Positions 60,859 to 64,000 of a stretch of 64,000 nucleotides of DNA are shown here, in pieces (the first letter of the stretch is position 1; each line of letters begins with the position of its first letter). The notes below the pieces were generated by a model. It had not been told where the DNA came from. It ran no database searches and saw nothing but the letters and a program-made list of their open reading frames with translations. The position numbers and the translations under genes are program-made. Source of the stretch: Candidatus Berkelbacteria bacterium. GTDB lineage: Bacteria > Patescibacteriota > UBA1384 > DTJR01. The DNA lies in NCBI GenBank assembly GCA_026397175.1, contig JAPLVK010000021.1, forward strand, positions 56,989 to 120,988, read 5' to 3'.

Positions 60859-61312
60859 TTGGAGGCAATTTGGCTTACAATTTTTGACATTAGATAGAAC
60901 ATAAAGCAGAGCAAGCCCAGCTTTCTGCTGGGCTATTATAGTCAAAAAAAACCAAAAGCCCTGAAATTTGACAAATGGATTTCCTGTTAACCCATTAGAC
61001 CTGGGAGCATTTAAATATGCATTAACGGGAAAAATCATCGGTTTGACAAAACCAGATGAGGAAGTGTTGAGGACACTTTACAGAAAAAATCCTCGTCAAT
61101 TCAAATTGAATTAAAGAGCCAGAATTGCTTTCAAGGCAATTCACTCAAATTCTTTACTAAGAGTTTGATCCTGGCTCAGGATGAACGCTAGCGGTGTACC
61201 TAAAACATGCAAGTCGTACGCTTGTAAAAGCGTGGCGAACGGGTGAGTAACGCGTGGGAATCTGCCTCAATCCGGGAAATACCTTGCCGAAAGGTGAGTT
61301 AATGTCCCATGA

Positions 61313-61739
61313 GATGGTAGCTAGTCATTGGTAGTTAGTTACTGGTAAAATGAGTTCATGATTTATAATGGACTCGATGTCTATAAACGAGCATACAAGT
61401 TGGCAATAGAAATACATAAGTTCTCCTTAGAACTTCCAAGATATTTACATAATGATATCGGAAGTCAAATAAGAAGATCCTCAAGATCGATTCCTTCTCA
61501 AATAGCAGAAGGTTTCTCTAGAAATAAATCAGATAAAGACAAGAAAAATTTCTTAAGAGATGCTCTTGGCTCAAACGAAGAAATGCTCTTCAATCTCAAG
61601 TTTATGAGAGATACGGATCTTATAAATTTAGAGAAGTATGAGTATTTCTTTAGCGAGTATGTTATCTGCGGAAAGCAGCTAATGAACTTGATGAAAAGTA
61701 TAGATACCAGAAACTAGCGACTAGCGACTAGTTACCATC
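61313..61739 (+). other. Intervening sequence (IVS) in 16S rRNA: 14-bp extended stem (GATGGTAGCTAGTC / GACTAGTTACCATC) closing a roughly 400-nt loop that encodes a protein
   Basis: The stem halves lie at 61313-61326 and 61726-61739. Flanking rRNA sequence is continuous with the conserved 16S 5' domain. Confidence 0.65.
61358..61717 (+). CDS. Four-helix-bundle protein of the rRNA-IVS family, encoded inside the 16S IVS
   Basis: YKRAYKLAIEIHKFSLELPRYLHNDIGSQIRRSSRSIPSQIAEGFSR is the family signature (…GLxSQIRRAAVSIPxNIAEG…). Same family as the Avd-like ORF at 44354-44749. Confidence 0.7.
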   Translation: MIYNGLDVYKRAYKLAIEIHKFSLELPRYLHNDIGSQIRRSSRSIPSQIAEGFSRNKSDKDKKNFLRDALGSNEEMLFNLKFMRDTDLINLEKYEYFFSEYVICGKQLMNLMKSIDTRN

Positions 61740-62816
61740 AAAGCTCCGGCGGATTGAGAGGAGCCTGCGTCCTATCAGCTTGTTGGTGGGGTAAAAGCCT
61801 ACCAAGGCAACGACGGGTAGCTGGTCTGAGAGGATGGTCAGCCACAATGGGACTGAGACACGGCCCATACACCTACGGGTGGCAGCAGTTAGGAATCGTA
61901 CACAATGGGGGAAACCCTGATGTCGTGACACCGCGTGAAGGATGAAGGTTTTCGGATCGTAAACTTCTTTTCTATGGGAGGATTATGACTTAACCATAGG
62001 AATAAGCATCGGCTAACTACGTGCCAGAAGCCTCGGTAATACGTAGGATGCGAGCGTTATCCGGTCTTATTGGGCGTAAAGAGCGCGTAGGCGGCCCGGC
62101 AAGTCCAATCTTAAATCCCATGGCTCAACCATGGAGCTGGATTGGATACTACCTGGCTTGAACACTTGCAGGGGTATGCGGAATCTACGGTGTAGGAGTA
62201 AAATCCATTGATATCGTAGAGAACACCAATGGCGAAGGCAGCTTGCTAGGCATTCACTGACGCTGAGGCGCGAAAGCGTGGGGAGCGAACGGGATTAGAT
62301 ACCCCGGTAGTCCACGCCGTAAACGATGCGGACTAGGTATTGGGATCATCGACCGTCCTTGTACCAAAGCAAACGCGTTAAGTCCGCCGCCTGGGGAGTA
62401 CGAGCGCAAGCTTAAAACTCAAAGGAATTGGCGGGGGCTCGCACAAGCGGTGGAACATGTGGTTTAATTCGACAGTAAGCGGAGCACCTCACCAAGGTTT
62501 GACATCTATGGAATCCTGATGAAAGTCGGGAGTGCCCGCAAGGGAGCCGTAAGACAGGTGCTGCACGGTCGTCGTCAGCTCGCGGCATGAGCTGTTCCGT
62601 TAACTCGGGACACGAGCGCAACCCCGATCGTCTGTTAAATTTCCACACGTGTTACAATGGCCGGTACAGAGGGTTGCAATATCGCGAGATGGAGCTAATC
62701 CCTAAAGCCGGTCCCAGTTCGGATTGGAGTCTGAAACTCGACTACATGCAGTCGGAATTGCTAGTAACCGTAGATCAGAACGATCCGGTGAATACGTCCT
62801 CGAGCCTTGCACACAA

Positions 62817-63647
62817 ATGTAAAGACGCATGGCAGTTTGATTAACTAAGTCGTGGAAATCGACTCCTCCGATACGCCATCGGAGCGTAGCTTAAAGCAGG
62901 TCCAACCTCGTGAGAGATGGACTAGAGGGCTAAATGGCAATTTGCAGCGGGCAGGCGAAAACCTGTACTGACTTATGTTAGGCGGTTGTGGCCTAGGGAA
63001 AGTACAATAAAAAGGTTGCTCGATGTAGAAAATAGCTAATCAAATGATCCATGGAGATCTTGCCTATGATAACGCAAACAAGGGCAAGAAGTCAGCCTGT
63101 TCATAGTAGACGCTGTGGTATAATGTATTTACCATGACGCAGCGTCAAAGGGACAGACCTAAGATTCTGTCACCAGAATATCTAGTCGGCTTAACTGATG
63201 GCGAAGGTTGCTTTTATGTTAACATTCGCCCGCCGCGATCAAAAAATGGCTTGCCTCAAGTAGAATTTCATTTCTACATTAAGTTAAGAGGCGACCACTT
63301 GGATCTTCTAAAAAAAGTCCAAAAATCTTTTGGTTGCGGAGCAGTGTATCGCCAAGCCGAGAAGCGAGCAAATCATAGCGAATGCTATCGGTTTGAAATA
63401 AACTCGCGAAAAGATATAAATCGTGTACTAGTACCGTTTTTCTTGCACTATCCCTTGCAGGGTCCGAAATCAAATGATTTTGCGACCTTCTGTAAAATTT
63501 TCAACCTTGTTTTGCAAGGTGAGAATAGTACAGAAAAGGGACTAGTTAAAATTAAACGGTTGAAAGAAAAAATGAATCTTGGGGCCCGCCGAGTGTGGAA
63601 AATCCGCTTGCTCGGTGGCAACGTGAAGTAGCGTTAACTATCACAAT
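62817..63647 (+). mobile_element. Insertion of 831 nt (probable intron) in 16S between …CCTTGCACACA and CCGCCCGTCA… (E. coli position about 1400), carrying a LAGLIDADG homing endonuclease
   Basis: Conserved 16S sequence breaks at 62816 and resumes at 63648. Insertions at this site with homing endonuclease ORFs are known in CPR 16S genes. Confidence 0.65.
63134..63631 (+). CDS. LAGLIDADG-family homing endonuclease (single-motif, 165 aa)
   Basis: YLVGLTDGEGCFYVNI is the LAGLIDADG motif. The size resembles I-CreI-type homodimeric enzymes. Confidence 0.75.
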   Translation: MTQRQRDRPKILSPEYLVGLTDGEGCFYVNIRPPRSKNGLPQVEFHFYIKLRGDHLDLLKKVQKSFGCGAVYRQAEKRANHSECYRFEINSRKDINRVLVPFFLHYPLQGPKSNDFATFCKIFNLVLQGENSTEKGLVKIKRLKEKMNLGARRVWKIRLLGGNVK

Positions 63648-64000
63648 CCGCCCGTCAAGGCAGGAAAGCCGGCAATGCCCGAATCACGATTTTTTCGTGA
63701 CACGGCAGGGTCGGTAATCAGGCCTAAGTCGTAACAAGGTATCCGTAGGGGAATCTGCGGATGGATCACCTCCTTTCTAGGGAGATAAACCCTGCGCCTC
63801 TTGGCGCAGCGGAAGATTATGGTTGATTTCCGGATTTATCCGGAATATCTCATCTGGTTTTGTCAGATCGAAAAATTTCGATTAGTACTATTTGGTTGGA
63901 AATCATAAATTCAAAACAGTTTAAAATTTGAGATTTAAAATTTATTTGATTTTTGGTGCTTTGGATTTGGTGCTTAAATTACTGCGTATCTAGTAGCTAA

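What the first reader, a model, noticed from the sequence alone, without database searches (positions are those of the whole stretch)
61153..63777. 16S rRNA gene carrying two protein-coding insertions: an IVS encoding a four-helix-bundle protein and an intron encoding a LAGLIDADG endonuclease
Conserved 16S sequence is interrupted at about 61327-61725, a stem-closed loop in the 5' domain encoding a 119-aa IVS-family protein, and at 62817-63647, between CACACA and CCGCCCGTCA and encoding a 165-aa LAGLIDADG enzyme. Insertions with homing endonucleases are established for CPR 16S genes. An IVS-family four-helix-bundle ORF inside 16S, rather than 23S, is less commonly reported. The mature 16S also appears to lack about 100 nt in the 1100-1200 region.
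Basis: partly seen in the sequence, partly recalled or inferred. Interest (0 to 1): 0.55.

Follow-up and report, generated by a model that had tools for sequence, protein, structure and literature searches.

The report
Berkelbacteria 16S gene with two mobile inserts
This is a 16S rRNA gene of an uncultured Berkelbacteria (CPR) bacterium, interrupted by a stem-closed intervening sequence that encodes a small helical protein and by a group II (not group I) intron that encodes a homing endonuclease; both insert types are already documented in this bacterial group, and a 77-base gap in an essential part of the gene is most likely an assembly error.

Summary
A bacterial 16S gene (Rfam RF00177, 1083 bits) runs from 61153 to about 63777 and carries two protein-coding insertions.

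- **Insertion 1 (61313-61739):** it lengthens helix 9 (V2) into a 31-bp stem that closes a loop. The loop holds a 119-aa PF05635/TIGR02436 ORF under purifying selection (dN/dS about 0.1). This is a classical IVS, presumably cut out by RNase III.
- **Insertion 2 (62817-63647):** it lies between E. coli A1398 and C1399 and encodes a single-motif LAGLIDADG_1 enzyme. It is not a group I intron. It has a covariation-proven domain V (CGC triad with a G.U pair, 2-nt bulge). Domain VI has an invariant bulged A 8 nt from the 3' end, and the intron ends in AU. There is also a D3-like block that reaches the Rfam group II threshold in homologues. It belongs to the CPR "16IS9" group II-LHE introns and resembles the Thiomargarita rns-1396 IIC-LHE introns.
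- **The "missing ~100 nt":** this is real in the sequence. 77 nt are absent at 62643|62644 compared with every relative examined, which removes the 3' strands of h34, h38 and h32 and all of h40. The rest of the gene shows no decay, so the gap is probably an assembly artefact.

Both insertion types are published for CPR 16S genes, so this is a new member of known kinds.

The parts
61153..63777 (+). 16S rRNA gene (2625 nt; about 1381 nt once both insertions are removed)
   Evidence: RF00177 at 1083 bits starting at 61153. The 3' exon and the anti-Shine-Dalgarno end GGATCACCTCCTTT were read directly and aligned to E. coli.
61313..61739 (+). Intervening sequence: helix 9 (V2, E. coli about 187-190) extended into a 31-bp closing stem (14+5+7+5 bp) around an ORF-bearing loop
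   Evidence: MFE fold of 61305-61745: -142.7 kcal/mol, z = -9.6, with the stem 61313-61326 paired to 61726-61739 and its continuation. The same stem occurs in L011 with pair-preserving changes. The element is absent from relatives L012 (8F-to-515 spacing of 494 nt, no room for an insertion) and L014 (V2 region 180 nt against 593 nt).
61358..61717 (+). IVS protein ORF, 119 aa, four-helix-bundle family (PF05635 23S_rRNA_IVP / TIGR02436)
   Evidence: Pfam 8e-25 (87.6 bits, cutoff 33.8) and TIGR02436 5e-25. PDB relatives 2GSC and 2RLD. dN/dS 0.10 against L011 (28 synonymous and 16 non-synonymous changes).
62643..62644 (+). Junction of a 77-nt gap relative to all relatives. It removes the h39 3' strand, h40, and the 3' strands of h38, h34 and h32.
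   Evidence: Pairwise alignment to L009. Segment length is 47 nt here against 124-128 nt in 18 of 21 related loci, the other three being longer. The missing piece is not found anywhere else in the 64-kb window.
62817..63647 (+). Group II (IIC-like) intron carrying a LAGLIDADG gene, inserted between E. coli A1398 and C1399
   Evidence: The boundaries are unambiguous against the intron-less relative L009 and E. coli. Homologous 813-910-nt introns occupy the same site in 25 loci with both exons visible.
62984..62991 (+). EBS1-like motif GGUUGUGG (family consensus GGUGUGU, complementary to the exon junction ACACA|CC). In the window, UGUG at 62987-62990 can pair with CACA at 62813-62816.
   Evidence: Conserved block in the alignment of 25 intron 5' halves. 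The pairing itself is inferred.
63058..63153 (+). Domain II/III-like core block (AGAAGUCAGC...AUAGUAG...GAAGG-like)
   Evidence: RF01998 group-II-D1D4-1 scores 17.7 bits, E = 1.3, below threshold in the window. The same block at the same relative position scores 37-47 bits (cutoff 35) in the homologous introns of L062, L046, L074 and L029. It is at least 90% conserved in the alignment.
63134..63631 (+). Single-motif LAGLIDADG_1 homing endonuclease ORF, 165 aa (motif LVGLTDGEG). Its last 17 codons are encoded by domains V and VI.
   Evidence: Pfam 2.4e-21 (77 bits, cutoff 23.1). It matches each half of I-OnuI-family enzymes at about 1e-33. There are 286 homologues. dN/dS is 0.23 against L012, and all 87 differences fall in the first 148 codons.
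63586..63618 (+). Intron domain V: 9+4 bp in the window, C-G-C triad at 63587-63589 with a G.U pair, 2-nt bulge (63608-63609), loop AAAAU
   Evidence: Covariation across 52 distinct homologues: 99.2% of cells paired and 7 pairs with changes on both sides. The triad pairs are effectively invariant (CG 51/51, G.U 50/51, CG 51/51). RNAalifold predicts the same helix independently.
63623..63644 (+). Intron domain VI: 7 bp with a bulged A at 63640 (8 nt from the 3' splice site); the intron ends AAU at 63647
   Evidence: All 7 pairs show changes on both sides. The bulged A is invariant in all 52 sequences.
63648..63777 (+). 16S 3' exon (decoding-centre strand, shortened h44, h45, anti-SD)
   Evidence: Direct reading and alignment to E. 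coli.

Best explanation
This is the 16S rRNA gene of a Candidatus Berkelbacteria (CPR/Patescibacteria) genome, and it carries two independent selfish insertions.

(1) The IVS. An IVS of about 415 nt sits at the tip of helix 9. Its ends form a 31-bp duplex. By analogy with 23S IVSs, RNase III cuts this duplex out of the precursor, leaving a 16S made of a roughly 165-nt 5' piece and a roughly 1.2-kb 3' piece held together by base pairing. This step is inferred. The loop encodes a 119-aa four-helix-bundle IVS protein. Its biochemical role is unknown, but it is kept intact by selection.

(2) The intron. An 831-nt group II, IIC-like ribozyme intron sits between A1398 and C1399 in the decoding centre. 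It must be removed with exact exon ligation for the ribosome to work. Domain V supplies the catalytic centre and the bulged A of domain VI the branch nucleophile (or water, if splicing goes by hydrolysis). An EBS1-like UGUG pairs with the exon's CACA. The intron carries a single-motif LAGLIDADG enzyme that, as a homodimer, would cleave intron-less 16S alleles at ACACA|CCGCCC and drive DNA-level homing. The ORF starts in the D3 region and reads through D5 into the D6 loop.

(3) The gap. The 77-nt gap at 62643|62644 is not part of this biology. It would destroy h34 and the h38-h40 arm, so it is most likely an assembly or consensus error, or less likely a defective copy.
For: Identity and boundaries.

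Organism: the LHE is 100% identical to an NCBI 'MAG: Candidatus Berkelbacteria' protein on a 129-kb contig.

IVS:
- Long closing stem, z = -9.6, conserved in L011.
- PF05635/TIGR02436 well above cutoffs.
- dN/dS 0.10-0.17.
- The same element sits in 16S h9 of L009/L010 (97% aa) and L011 (87%). It is absent from L012 and L014.
- RNase III excision is established for the ORF-bearing 428-nt Coxiella IVS (PMC4990558).

Intron:
- D5/D6 covariation: 97.8% of cells paired, 14 of 21 pairs with double changes, 0 of 500 shuffles reach the observed score, and slid controls pair at only 33-42%.
- RNAalifold independently predicts 20 of the same 21 pairs.
- The bulged A is invariant and the 3' end is AAU.
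- RF01998 is above threshold in four homologous introns and weak in the window.
- The family has a conserved GGUGUGU motif.
- The literature places group II-like, LAGLIDADG_1-encoding insertions at 16S position 1400 of CPR (site 16IS9; PMC11270868) and a IIC-LHE intron in Thiomargarita 16S (PMC13190283).
- Endonuclease. A CPR single-domain LHE cleaves its own site and dimerises (I-ShaI, PMC11270868).

Gap:
- It is unique to the window.
- There is no excess of private substitutions: 17 against 17-25 in relatives.
Against: - No RNA data. Excision of either element, fragmentation versus ligation at the IVS, and branching versus hydrolysis at the intron are all inferred.
- The intron's 5' end is AAUGU, not GUGYG.
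- Rfam's D5-D6 model RF00029 gives no hit at E<=10, and RF01998 is below threshold in the window itself.
- The window's EBS1-IBS1 pairing is only 4 bp.
- No independent contig could be found that covers the gap, so 'artefact' is an argument from function, not a demonstration.
- The 5' block of the gene is 98.4% identical to L009 while the rest is 88.6% identical, so part of this locus could be a chimeric assembly.
Confidence: 0.8

Rival explanations
1. The 3' insertion is a group I intron with a LAGLIDADG ORF, which is the fold the first reader proposed to test.
For: Group I introns with LAGLIDADG genes are the commonest rRNA insertions in CPR (PMC11270868). Relatives carry genuine group I introns elsewhere in the same genes: L012 5591-5947, L017, L023 and L065, at 54-81 bits.
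Against: There is no RF00028 hit in the window at E<=1 or E<=10, whereas neighbouring group I introns are easily detected. The 5' exon ends in A rather than U, and the intron ends in U rather than G. The 3' end folds into covariation-supported group II domains V and VI.
Confidence: 0.02
2. The 77-nt deletion is real in the DNA. This copy is then a dead or dying 16S gene, for example a second copy or a minority variant that the assembler picked up.
For: The sequence as given lacks the segment. No k-mer repeat that would explain an assembler skip is evident at the junction in relatives (only a loose CAGACG/CACACG resemblance).
Against: CPR genomes usually have a single rRNA operon (PMC11270868), so a dead copy would be lethal. 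The rest of the gene shows no relaxed constraint: 17 private substitutions at otherwise invariant columns against 17-25 in relatives. Both ORFs are intact and under purifying selection.
Confidence: 0.2
3. The locus is partly a chimeric metagenome assembly. The IVS-bearing 5' block (up to about 61975) would come from an L009-like population and the remainder from the population that owns the flanking genes. Under this reading, both the co-occurrence of the two insertions in one gene and the gap would be assembly products.
For: There is a sharp identity break against L009: 698/709 = 98.4% up to 61975, then 745/841 = 88.6%. IVP dS is 0.06 against L009 but 0.60 against L011. Short-read assemblies of the same population break exactly at the start of the 16S (L005-L008) and inside it (L002-L004). 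The gene also contains an implausible 77-nt gap.
Against: An independent 82-kb contig (L011) also carries the h9 IVS together with a LAGLIDADG_1 ORF (2755-3312) that ends just upstream of CCGCCCGTC in the same 16S gene. The co-occurrence is therefore biologically real in this lineage. The same mosaic could instead arise from homologous recombination of rDNA carrying the IVS.
Confidence: 0.3
4. The 5' insertion is a lineage-specific expansion segment retained in the mature 16S, and its ORF is fortuitous.
For: Helix 9/V2 is variable in length among bacteria. No RNA data are available.
Against: The ORF has 94 homologues and matches curated families about 50 bits above cutoff. dN/dS is about 0.1. 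The element is missing from close relatives L012 and L014. Its nearest protein relatives sit in 23S IVSs (L172-L176). The 31-bp terminal duplex is the classical RNase III substrate of IVSs (PMC4990558).
Confidence: 0.03

Closest known systems
CPR 16S insertion site 16IS9 (position about 1400): group II-like introns encoding LAGLIDADG_1 (Tsurumaki et al. 2024, PMC11270868; first noted by Brown et al. 2015)
   Same: Same host clade and same insertion point (A1398|C1399). Same protein family and single-domain architecture, with no reverse transcriptase. Homologous introns were recovered here from 60 or more CPR loci.
   Different: Nothing essential. This copy falls below Rfam's thresholds, so it would be scored 'no intron hit' by the published pipeline. 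In this sub-clade the ORF reads through D5 into D6.
Thiomargarita / Thiotrichaceae 16S 'rns-1396' group IIC-LHE intron (Salman et al. 2012; PMC13190283)
   Same: A bacterial 16S gene at practically the same site. IIC-type features: a CGC-type D5 is seen here, and the IIC assignment is given in that paper. Single-motif LHE, with the ORF in the D3/D4 region.
   Different: The host is a different phylum. Direct sequence homology to the Thiomargarita intron was not tested here. The 2026 survey did not list CPR members at all.
Coxiella burnetii 23S IVS (428 nt, helix 45, ORF S23p; PMC4990558) and other 23S IVSs of Leptospira, Salmonella and Campylobacter
   Same: Same size class (427 nt here), a long terminal duplex, an ORF of the same family (PF05635), and sporadic distribution with signs of lateral transfer.
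   Different: It sits in 16S helix 9, not in 23S. The Coxiella ORF is decaying and apparently not translated, whereas here the ORF is under purifying selection (dN/dS 0.1).
16S IVSs of Helicobacter fennelliae and H. canis and of Campylobacter spp. (PMC3335488)
   Same: 16S gene, same V2 neighbourhood (position about 175-210), 24-bp terminal stem, A+T-rich.
   Different: Those IVSs carry no ORF (PMC3335488). This one encodes an IVS protein.
Mitochondrial rRNA group II introns with LAGLIDADG ORFs (Toor & Zimmerly 2002; Mullineux et al. 2010; cited)
   Same: A group II ribozyme combined with a LAGLIDADG homing enzyme in an rRNA gene, with mobility at the DNA level.
   Different: Those are IIB1/IIA backbones with mostly double-motif enzymes and are organellar.

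Membership tests
Bacterial rRNA intervening sequence (IVS, RNase III type) | Replaces the tip of a variable helix and is absent from related rRNA genes | tested here: met
   At the tip of helix 9. L014 has a 3-bp + GCAA hairpin there and its V2 region is 180 nt against 593 nt in the window. L012 has no insertion.
Bacterial rRNA intervening sequence (IVS, RNase III type) | The 5' and 3' ends form a long duplex | tested here: met
   31 bp in four segments, z = -9.6; preserved in L011.
Bacterial rRNA intervening sequence (IVS, RNase III type) | Excised by RNase III without religation, leaving a fragmented rRNA | not testable with these tools
   Needs RNA data or an in vitro RNase III assay.
PF05635 23S_rRNA_IVP / TIGR02436 four-helix-bundle protein | Score above the curated cutoffs across the full domain | tested here: met
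   87.6 bits against 33.8 (residues 6-108 of 119) and 87.8 against 24. Solved relatives 2GSC and 2RLD.
Group II intron | Domain V: about 14 bp, 2-nt bulge on the 3' strand, conserved triad with a G.U pair near the base | tested here: met
   63586-63618. Covariation in 52 sequences; the CGC triad pairs are effectively invariant.
Group II intron | Domain VI with a bulged adenosine 7-8 nt from the 3' splice site; 3' end AY | tested here: met
   A63640 is invariant in 52/52 sequences. All 7 pairs covary. The intron ends in AU.
Group II intron | 5' end GUGYG | tested here: not met
   The window starts AAUGU, and the family is variable and A/U-rich here.
Group II intron | Match to the curated Rfam models (RF00029 D5-D6; RF01998-type D1-D4) | tested here: inconclusive
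   No RF00029 hit at E<=10. RF01998 scores 17.7 bits against a cutoff of 35 in the window, but 37-47 bits in the homologous introns of L029, L046, L062 and L074.
Group II intron | EBS1-IBS1 pairing with the 5' exon | tested here: inconclusive
   The family consensus GGUGUGU is complementary to ACACA|CC. The window has GGUUGUGG, giving 4 bp. The exon is invariant, so no covariation test is possible.
Group II intron | Self-splicing with exact exon ligation | not testable with these tools
   Needs an in vitro splicing assay or RT-PCR.
Group I intron | Match to RF00028; U before the 5' splice site; terminal G | tested here: not met
   No hit at E<=10. The exon ends in A and the intron ends in U.
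LAGLIDADG_1 homing endonuclease (single-motif, homodimeric) | Domain score above cutoff; one LAGLIDADG helix with the catalytic acidic residue; about 160-170 aa | tested here: met
   77 bits against 23.1. The motif LVGLTDGEG has G23 E24 G25 invariant among 24 homologues. It matches each half of I-OnuI-type enzymes.
LAGLIDADG_1 homing endonuclease (single-motif, homodimeric) | Cleaves the intron-less target site | not testable with these tools
   Shown only for another CPR enzyme, I-ShaI, at a 23S site (PMC11270868).
Functional bacterial 16S rRNA | All universal core helices present | tested here: not met
   The 3' strands of h34, h38 and h32 and all of h40 are missing.

The most novel reading that the evidence does not exclude
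The 77-nt gap is genuine, and the organism's only 16S rRNA works without the 3' strand of helix 34 and the h38-h40 arm, or receives that piece in trans from a locus outside this window. That would be a bacterial small-subunit rRNA reduced or split to a degree known only from organelles.

A second, more likely but less radical reading concerns the 98.4%-identical IVS-bearing block shared with L009. It could record recent exchange of an rDNA segment between lineages whose 16S genes otherwise differ by 11%. IVSs would then spread by homologous recombination of the rRNA gene itself.
Probability: 0.03. Interest if true: 0.85.

Novelty: new member of a known kind. Interest (0 to 1): 0.27.

Why it matters
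The main value is practical.

- **Annotation:** standard covariance models truncate this 16S at 62851 and miss the last 130 nt. The Rfam group II models miss the intron. Annotation pipelines and 16S surveys will therefore mis-measure such genes.
- **A usable signature:** the D5/D6 alignment built here gives a clean, covariation-backed signature for the CPR position-1399 group II-LHE family. A 2026 survey of group II-LHE introns did not list this family among bacteria.
- **Two leads for specialists:** the IVS protein is under purifying selection, unlike the decaying Coxiella ORF. In addition, a shared near-identical IVS block hints at lateral movement. Both are modest but testable.
- **A quality flag:** the 77-nt gap should be treated as a defect in the MAG rather than as biology.

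Tried and rejected
1. Group I intron: rejected.
2. Missing 77 nt encoded elsewhere in the window: a search for the conserved h34 motif with up to 3 mismatches found nothing. BLAST of the L009 segment gave only chance 9-12-mers. No SSU fragment was found in 1-61200.
3. Independent contigs across the gap: exact look-ups of the two spurious ORFs that span the junction found nothing. Contigs found through the neighbouring OMP-decarboxylase gene stop at the start of the 16S. Contigs found through the LHE start at 62738. The window's own IVS protein is not on record.
4. Pseudogene decay: no excess of private substitutions.
5. Is the IVP clade 16S-specific? No. The next relatives (65% identity) lie in 23S domain I. 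Of 80 metagenome loci, none lies in a 16S: about 30 of the 80 have the ORF in or beside a 23S gene, mostly at the helix-45 region, and the rest are free-standing.
6. Eight LHE-linked loci (L021, L034, L040, L060, L070, L078, L080, L085) have a different sequence upstream of D6. They were left out of the D5/D6 alignment and were not analysed further.
7. tRNA, other Rfam families, promoters and terminators: nothing informative.
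Full report
**Observation.** Rfam's bacterial SSU model matches the window from 61153 with 1083 bits. Because of the large 3' insertion, the model forces its last positions onto 62817-62851. The true 3' exon (CCGCCCGTCAAGG ... GTCGTAACAAGGTATCCGTAGGGGAATCTGCGGATGGATCACCTCCTTT) lies at 63648 to about 63777. Two ORFs lie inside the gene:
- 61358-61717 (119 aa): PF05635 23S_rRNA_IVP at 8e-25, and TIGR02436 'four helix bundle protein' at 5e-25.
- 63134-63631 (165 aa): LAGLIDADG_1 at 2.4e-21.

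The LHE is 100% identical to a protein that NCBI lists from a 'MAG: Candidatus Berkelbacteria bacterium' on a 129-kb contig, so the host is a CPR/Patescibacteria organism.

**Insertion 1, the IVS.**
- *Position:* cmscan places 404 extra bases in the hairpin at model position about 188. An IVS-free relative (L014) has a 3-bp helix 9 with a GCAA loop at this place, and its V2 region is 413 nt shorter. The element therefore extends helix 9 (E. coli about 187-190).
- *Structure:* folding 61305-61745 gives a closing duplex of 14+5+7+5 bp (61313-61326 paired with 61726-61739, and inward). The energy is -142.7 kcal/mol, z = -9.6. The ORF's stop codon lies inside the 3' strand of this duplex.
- *Relatives with the same element:* L009/L010 (protein 97% identical) and L011 (87%) carry it at the same helix. 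L011's stem keeps its pairing through one-sided and mismatch-closing changes.
- *Selection on the ORF:* dN/dS is 0.10 against L011 (28 synonymous and 16 non-synonymous changes) and 0.17 against L009. The ORF is a maintained gene, unlike the decaying S23p ORF of the 428-nt Coxiella 23S IVS (PMC4990558).
- *Wider family:* the next protein relatives (P0131 and P0126, about 65%) lie in domain I of 23S genes. L092 and L093 (62-63%) lie next to a tRNA outside any rRNA. None of the 80 best JGI metagenome loci is in a 16S, although about 30 of the 80 have the ORF in or beside a 23S gene, mostly at the helix-45 region. A 50%-identical homologue sits in V1-V2 of a Giovannonibacteria 16S (L080). The 16S-resident copy here is thus a small offshoot of a cassette that mostly occupies 23S IVSs or is free-standing.
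- *Prior reports:* Tsurumaki et al. 2024 already counted 18 PF05635 ORFs in CPR 16S insertions against 4 in 23S (PMC11270868 Table S4). ORF-less IVSs at the same V2 neighbourhood are known in Helicobacter and Campylobacter 16S genes (PMC3335488).
- *Mechanism:* excision by RNase III leaving a two-piece 16S is inferred by analogy. It is not shown.

**Insertion 2, the intron.**
- *Boundaries:* comparison with the intron-less L009 and with E. coli fixes them without any sliding ambiguity...GCACACA | AAUGUAAAG ... CACAAU | CCGCCCGU, that is A1398|C1399.
- *Not group I:* a group I intron would need U at -1 and a terminal G, and neither is present. RF00028 gives no hit at E<=10, although it readily detects other group I introns in relatives.
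- *Homologues:* a scan of GTDB representative genomes with an LHE profile returned 80 loci. In almost all of them the ORF ends about 20 nt before CCGCCCGTC, so they occupy the same site.
- *Domain V:* the last 66 intron nucleotides of 52 distinct sequences were aligned. They show a 14-bp hairpin with a 2-nt bulge and a basal C-G-C triad whose G forms a G.U pair. The triad pairs are CG 51/51, GU 50/51 and CG 51/51.
- *Domain VI:* a 7-bp hairpin follows, with a bulged A that is invariant in all 52 sequences and lies 8 nt from the splice site. The intron then ends AAU.
- *Covariation statistics:* 97.8% of cells are paired, 14 of 21 pairs show changes on both sides, 0 of 500 shuffles reach the observed covariation score, and slid registers pair at only 33-42%. 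RNAalifold predicts the same structure on its own.
- *Window coordinates:* D5 is 63586-63618, D6 is 63623-63644, and the branch A is 63640.
- *Other core elements:* upstream, a block AGAAGUCAGC...AUAGUAG...AAAGG (63058-63153) scores 17.7 bits against RF01998 group-II-D1D4-1. The same block in homologous introns L062, L046, L074 and L029 passes the gathering score at 37-47 bits. A conserved GGUGUGU in domain I is complementary to the exon junction ACACA|CC. The window has GGUUGUGG, which gives a 4-bp EBS1-IBS1.
- *Departures from the canon:* the 5' end is AAUGU, not GUGYG (variable and A/U-rich in the family, sometimes with an extra hairpin), and RF00029 does not match.
- *Classification:* this is the 'group II-like, LAGLIDADG_1-encoding' class that Tsurumaki et al. 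place at position 1400 (site 16IS9). It resembles the IIC-LHE 'rns-1396' intron of Thiomargarita (PMC13190283). From my own recollection, the CGC triad and the sequence CCGCCG...CGGUGG are also those of the O. iheyensis IIC intron; this was not tested.

**The endonuclease.** The 165-aa protein has one LAGLIDADG helix (LVGLTDGEG; G23, E24 and G25 are invariant among 24 homologues). It aligns to each half of I-OnuI-type monomers at about 1e-33, so a homodimer is expected. This has been shown for another CPR enzyme, I-ShaI. dN/dS against L012 is 0.23, and all 87 differences fall in the first 148 codons. The last 17 codons (GARRVWKIRLLGGNVK) are D5 plus the 5' half of D6 and are identical at the nucleotide level. 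The ATG lies in the D3 region and the UAG in the D6 loop. The conserved C-terminus of this protein sub-clade is therefore largely an imprint of the ribozyme.

**The missing segment.** Between GAGCGCAACCC and ACAATGG, E. coli has 139 nt. The 21 related loci listed have 124-128 nt in 18 cases and longer, insertion-bearing versions (160-297 nt) in three. The window has 47 nt.
- Against L009 the gap is exactly 77 nt (TCAGATGAGACTGCC...GGGGATGACGTCAGATCAGCGTGG...GGGCAA) at 62643|62644.
- It removes the 3' strand of h39, all of h40, and the 3' strands of h38, h34 and h32. These are parts of the head that no known bacterial ribosome lacks.
- The piece is not elsewhere in the window.
- The remainder of the gene is not decaying: it has 17 private substitutions at otherwise invariant columns, against 17-25 in four relatives.
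- I could not find an independent contig across the junction.
- My judgement is about 0.75 for an assembly or consensus artefact, about 0.2 for a real but non-functional allele, and a few per cent for a genuinely reduced or split rRNA.

**A caveat and a lead.** Against L009, the window is 98.4% identical from 61267 to 61975. That block comprises the IVS, 46 nt of upstream exon and 236 nt of downstream exon. The window is only 88.6% identical from 61976 to 62816. All other pairs are 85-91% identical in both blocks. IVP dS is 0.06 against L009 and 0.60 against L011. Either an IVS-bearing rDNA block moved recently between two lineages by homologous recombination, or one of the two contigs is chimeric. 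L011, from an independent 82-kb contig, also combines the h9 IVS with a LAGLIDADG_1 ORF that ends just upstream of CCGCCCGTC. The co-occurrence of the two elements is therefore not itself an artefact.

**Verdict.** The finding is real and its reading is largely right. The intron is group II rather than group I, and the deletion is best treated as a sequence defect. Both insertion types, their sites and their proteins are already published for CPR 16S genes, so this is a new member of known kinds and is of modest interest.

Noticed in passing
window 61267-61975 vs L009 1-709: There is a sharp mosaic. The IVS plus flanking exon is 98.4% identical to L009, while the rest of the 16S is 88.6% identical. 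IVP dS is 0.06 against L009 and 0.60 against L011. This is either lateral exchange of an rDNA block or a chimeric assembly.
   Followed up: partly
window 63581-63631: The last 17 codons of the LAGLIDADG ORF are encoded by intron domains V and VI, and the stop codon lies in the D6 loop. This stretch shows no nucleotide differences from L012, whereas the first 148 codons show 87.
   Followed up: partly
window 62817-62835 and homologues: The group II family lacks the GUGYG 5' end. The first 7-10 nt are A/U-rich and variable. L039 and L050 carry an extra 20-30-nt hairpin there, ahead of the conserved GCGCGCC(U/A)GGCAG.
   Followed up: partly
L021, L034, L040, L060, L070, L078, L080, L085 (3' ends): Eight LHE-linked insertions at the same 16S site have a different sequence in place of the canonical D5, for example GGGAAGCGACAUGGUUCCGAU...GGAAGGGAAC. 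D6 and the AAU end are retained in most, while L034 differs there too and ends in AUCA. This may be a divergent or degenerate D5.
   Followed up: no
L012 5591-5947; L023 5563-5878; L017 3725-3983 and 5580-5777; L065 3284-3566: Relatives carry additional group I introns (RF00028, 54-81 bits) at other positions of the same 16S genes. The window has none of these.
   Followed up: no
L092 385-846; L093 3001-3511: IVS-protein homologues (62-63% identical) lie 40-100 nt upstream of a tRNA gene, with no rRNA similarity in the flanks. The cassette also exists outside rRNA genes.
   Followed up: no
L016, L023, L025, L027, L036, L039, L062 (record titles): Contigs carrying this CPR-type 16S intron are titled Nevskiaceae, Omnitrophota or 'uncultured Gammaproteobacteria' in GTDB and NCBI records. 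These may be mis-binned contigs or automatic names; alternatively the intron family may reach beyond CPR.
   Followed up: no
window 62016-62034: The 515F primer region reads GTGCCAGAAGCCTCGGTAA, with two changes (C to A and G to T) against the universal GTGCCAGCMGCCGCGGTAA. L009 shares them. Standard 515F primers would mismatch this lineage.
   Followed up: no
window 63648-63730: Helix 44 is about 13 nt shorter than in E. coli, and h39 is about 15 nt shorter in the whole lineage. Both fit the known rRNA reduction in CPR.
   Followed up: no
window 1-61152: There are no tRNA genes and no other Rfam family across 61 kb of mostly same-strand ORFs upstream of the 16S. The gene immediately upstream (59757-60503) is an OMP decarboxylase (PF00215).
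   Followed up: no
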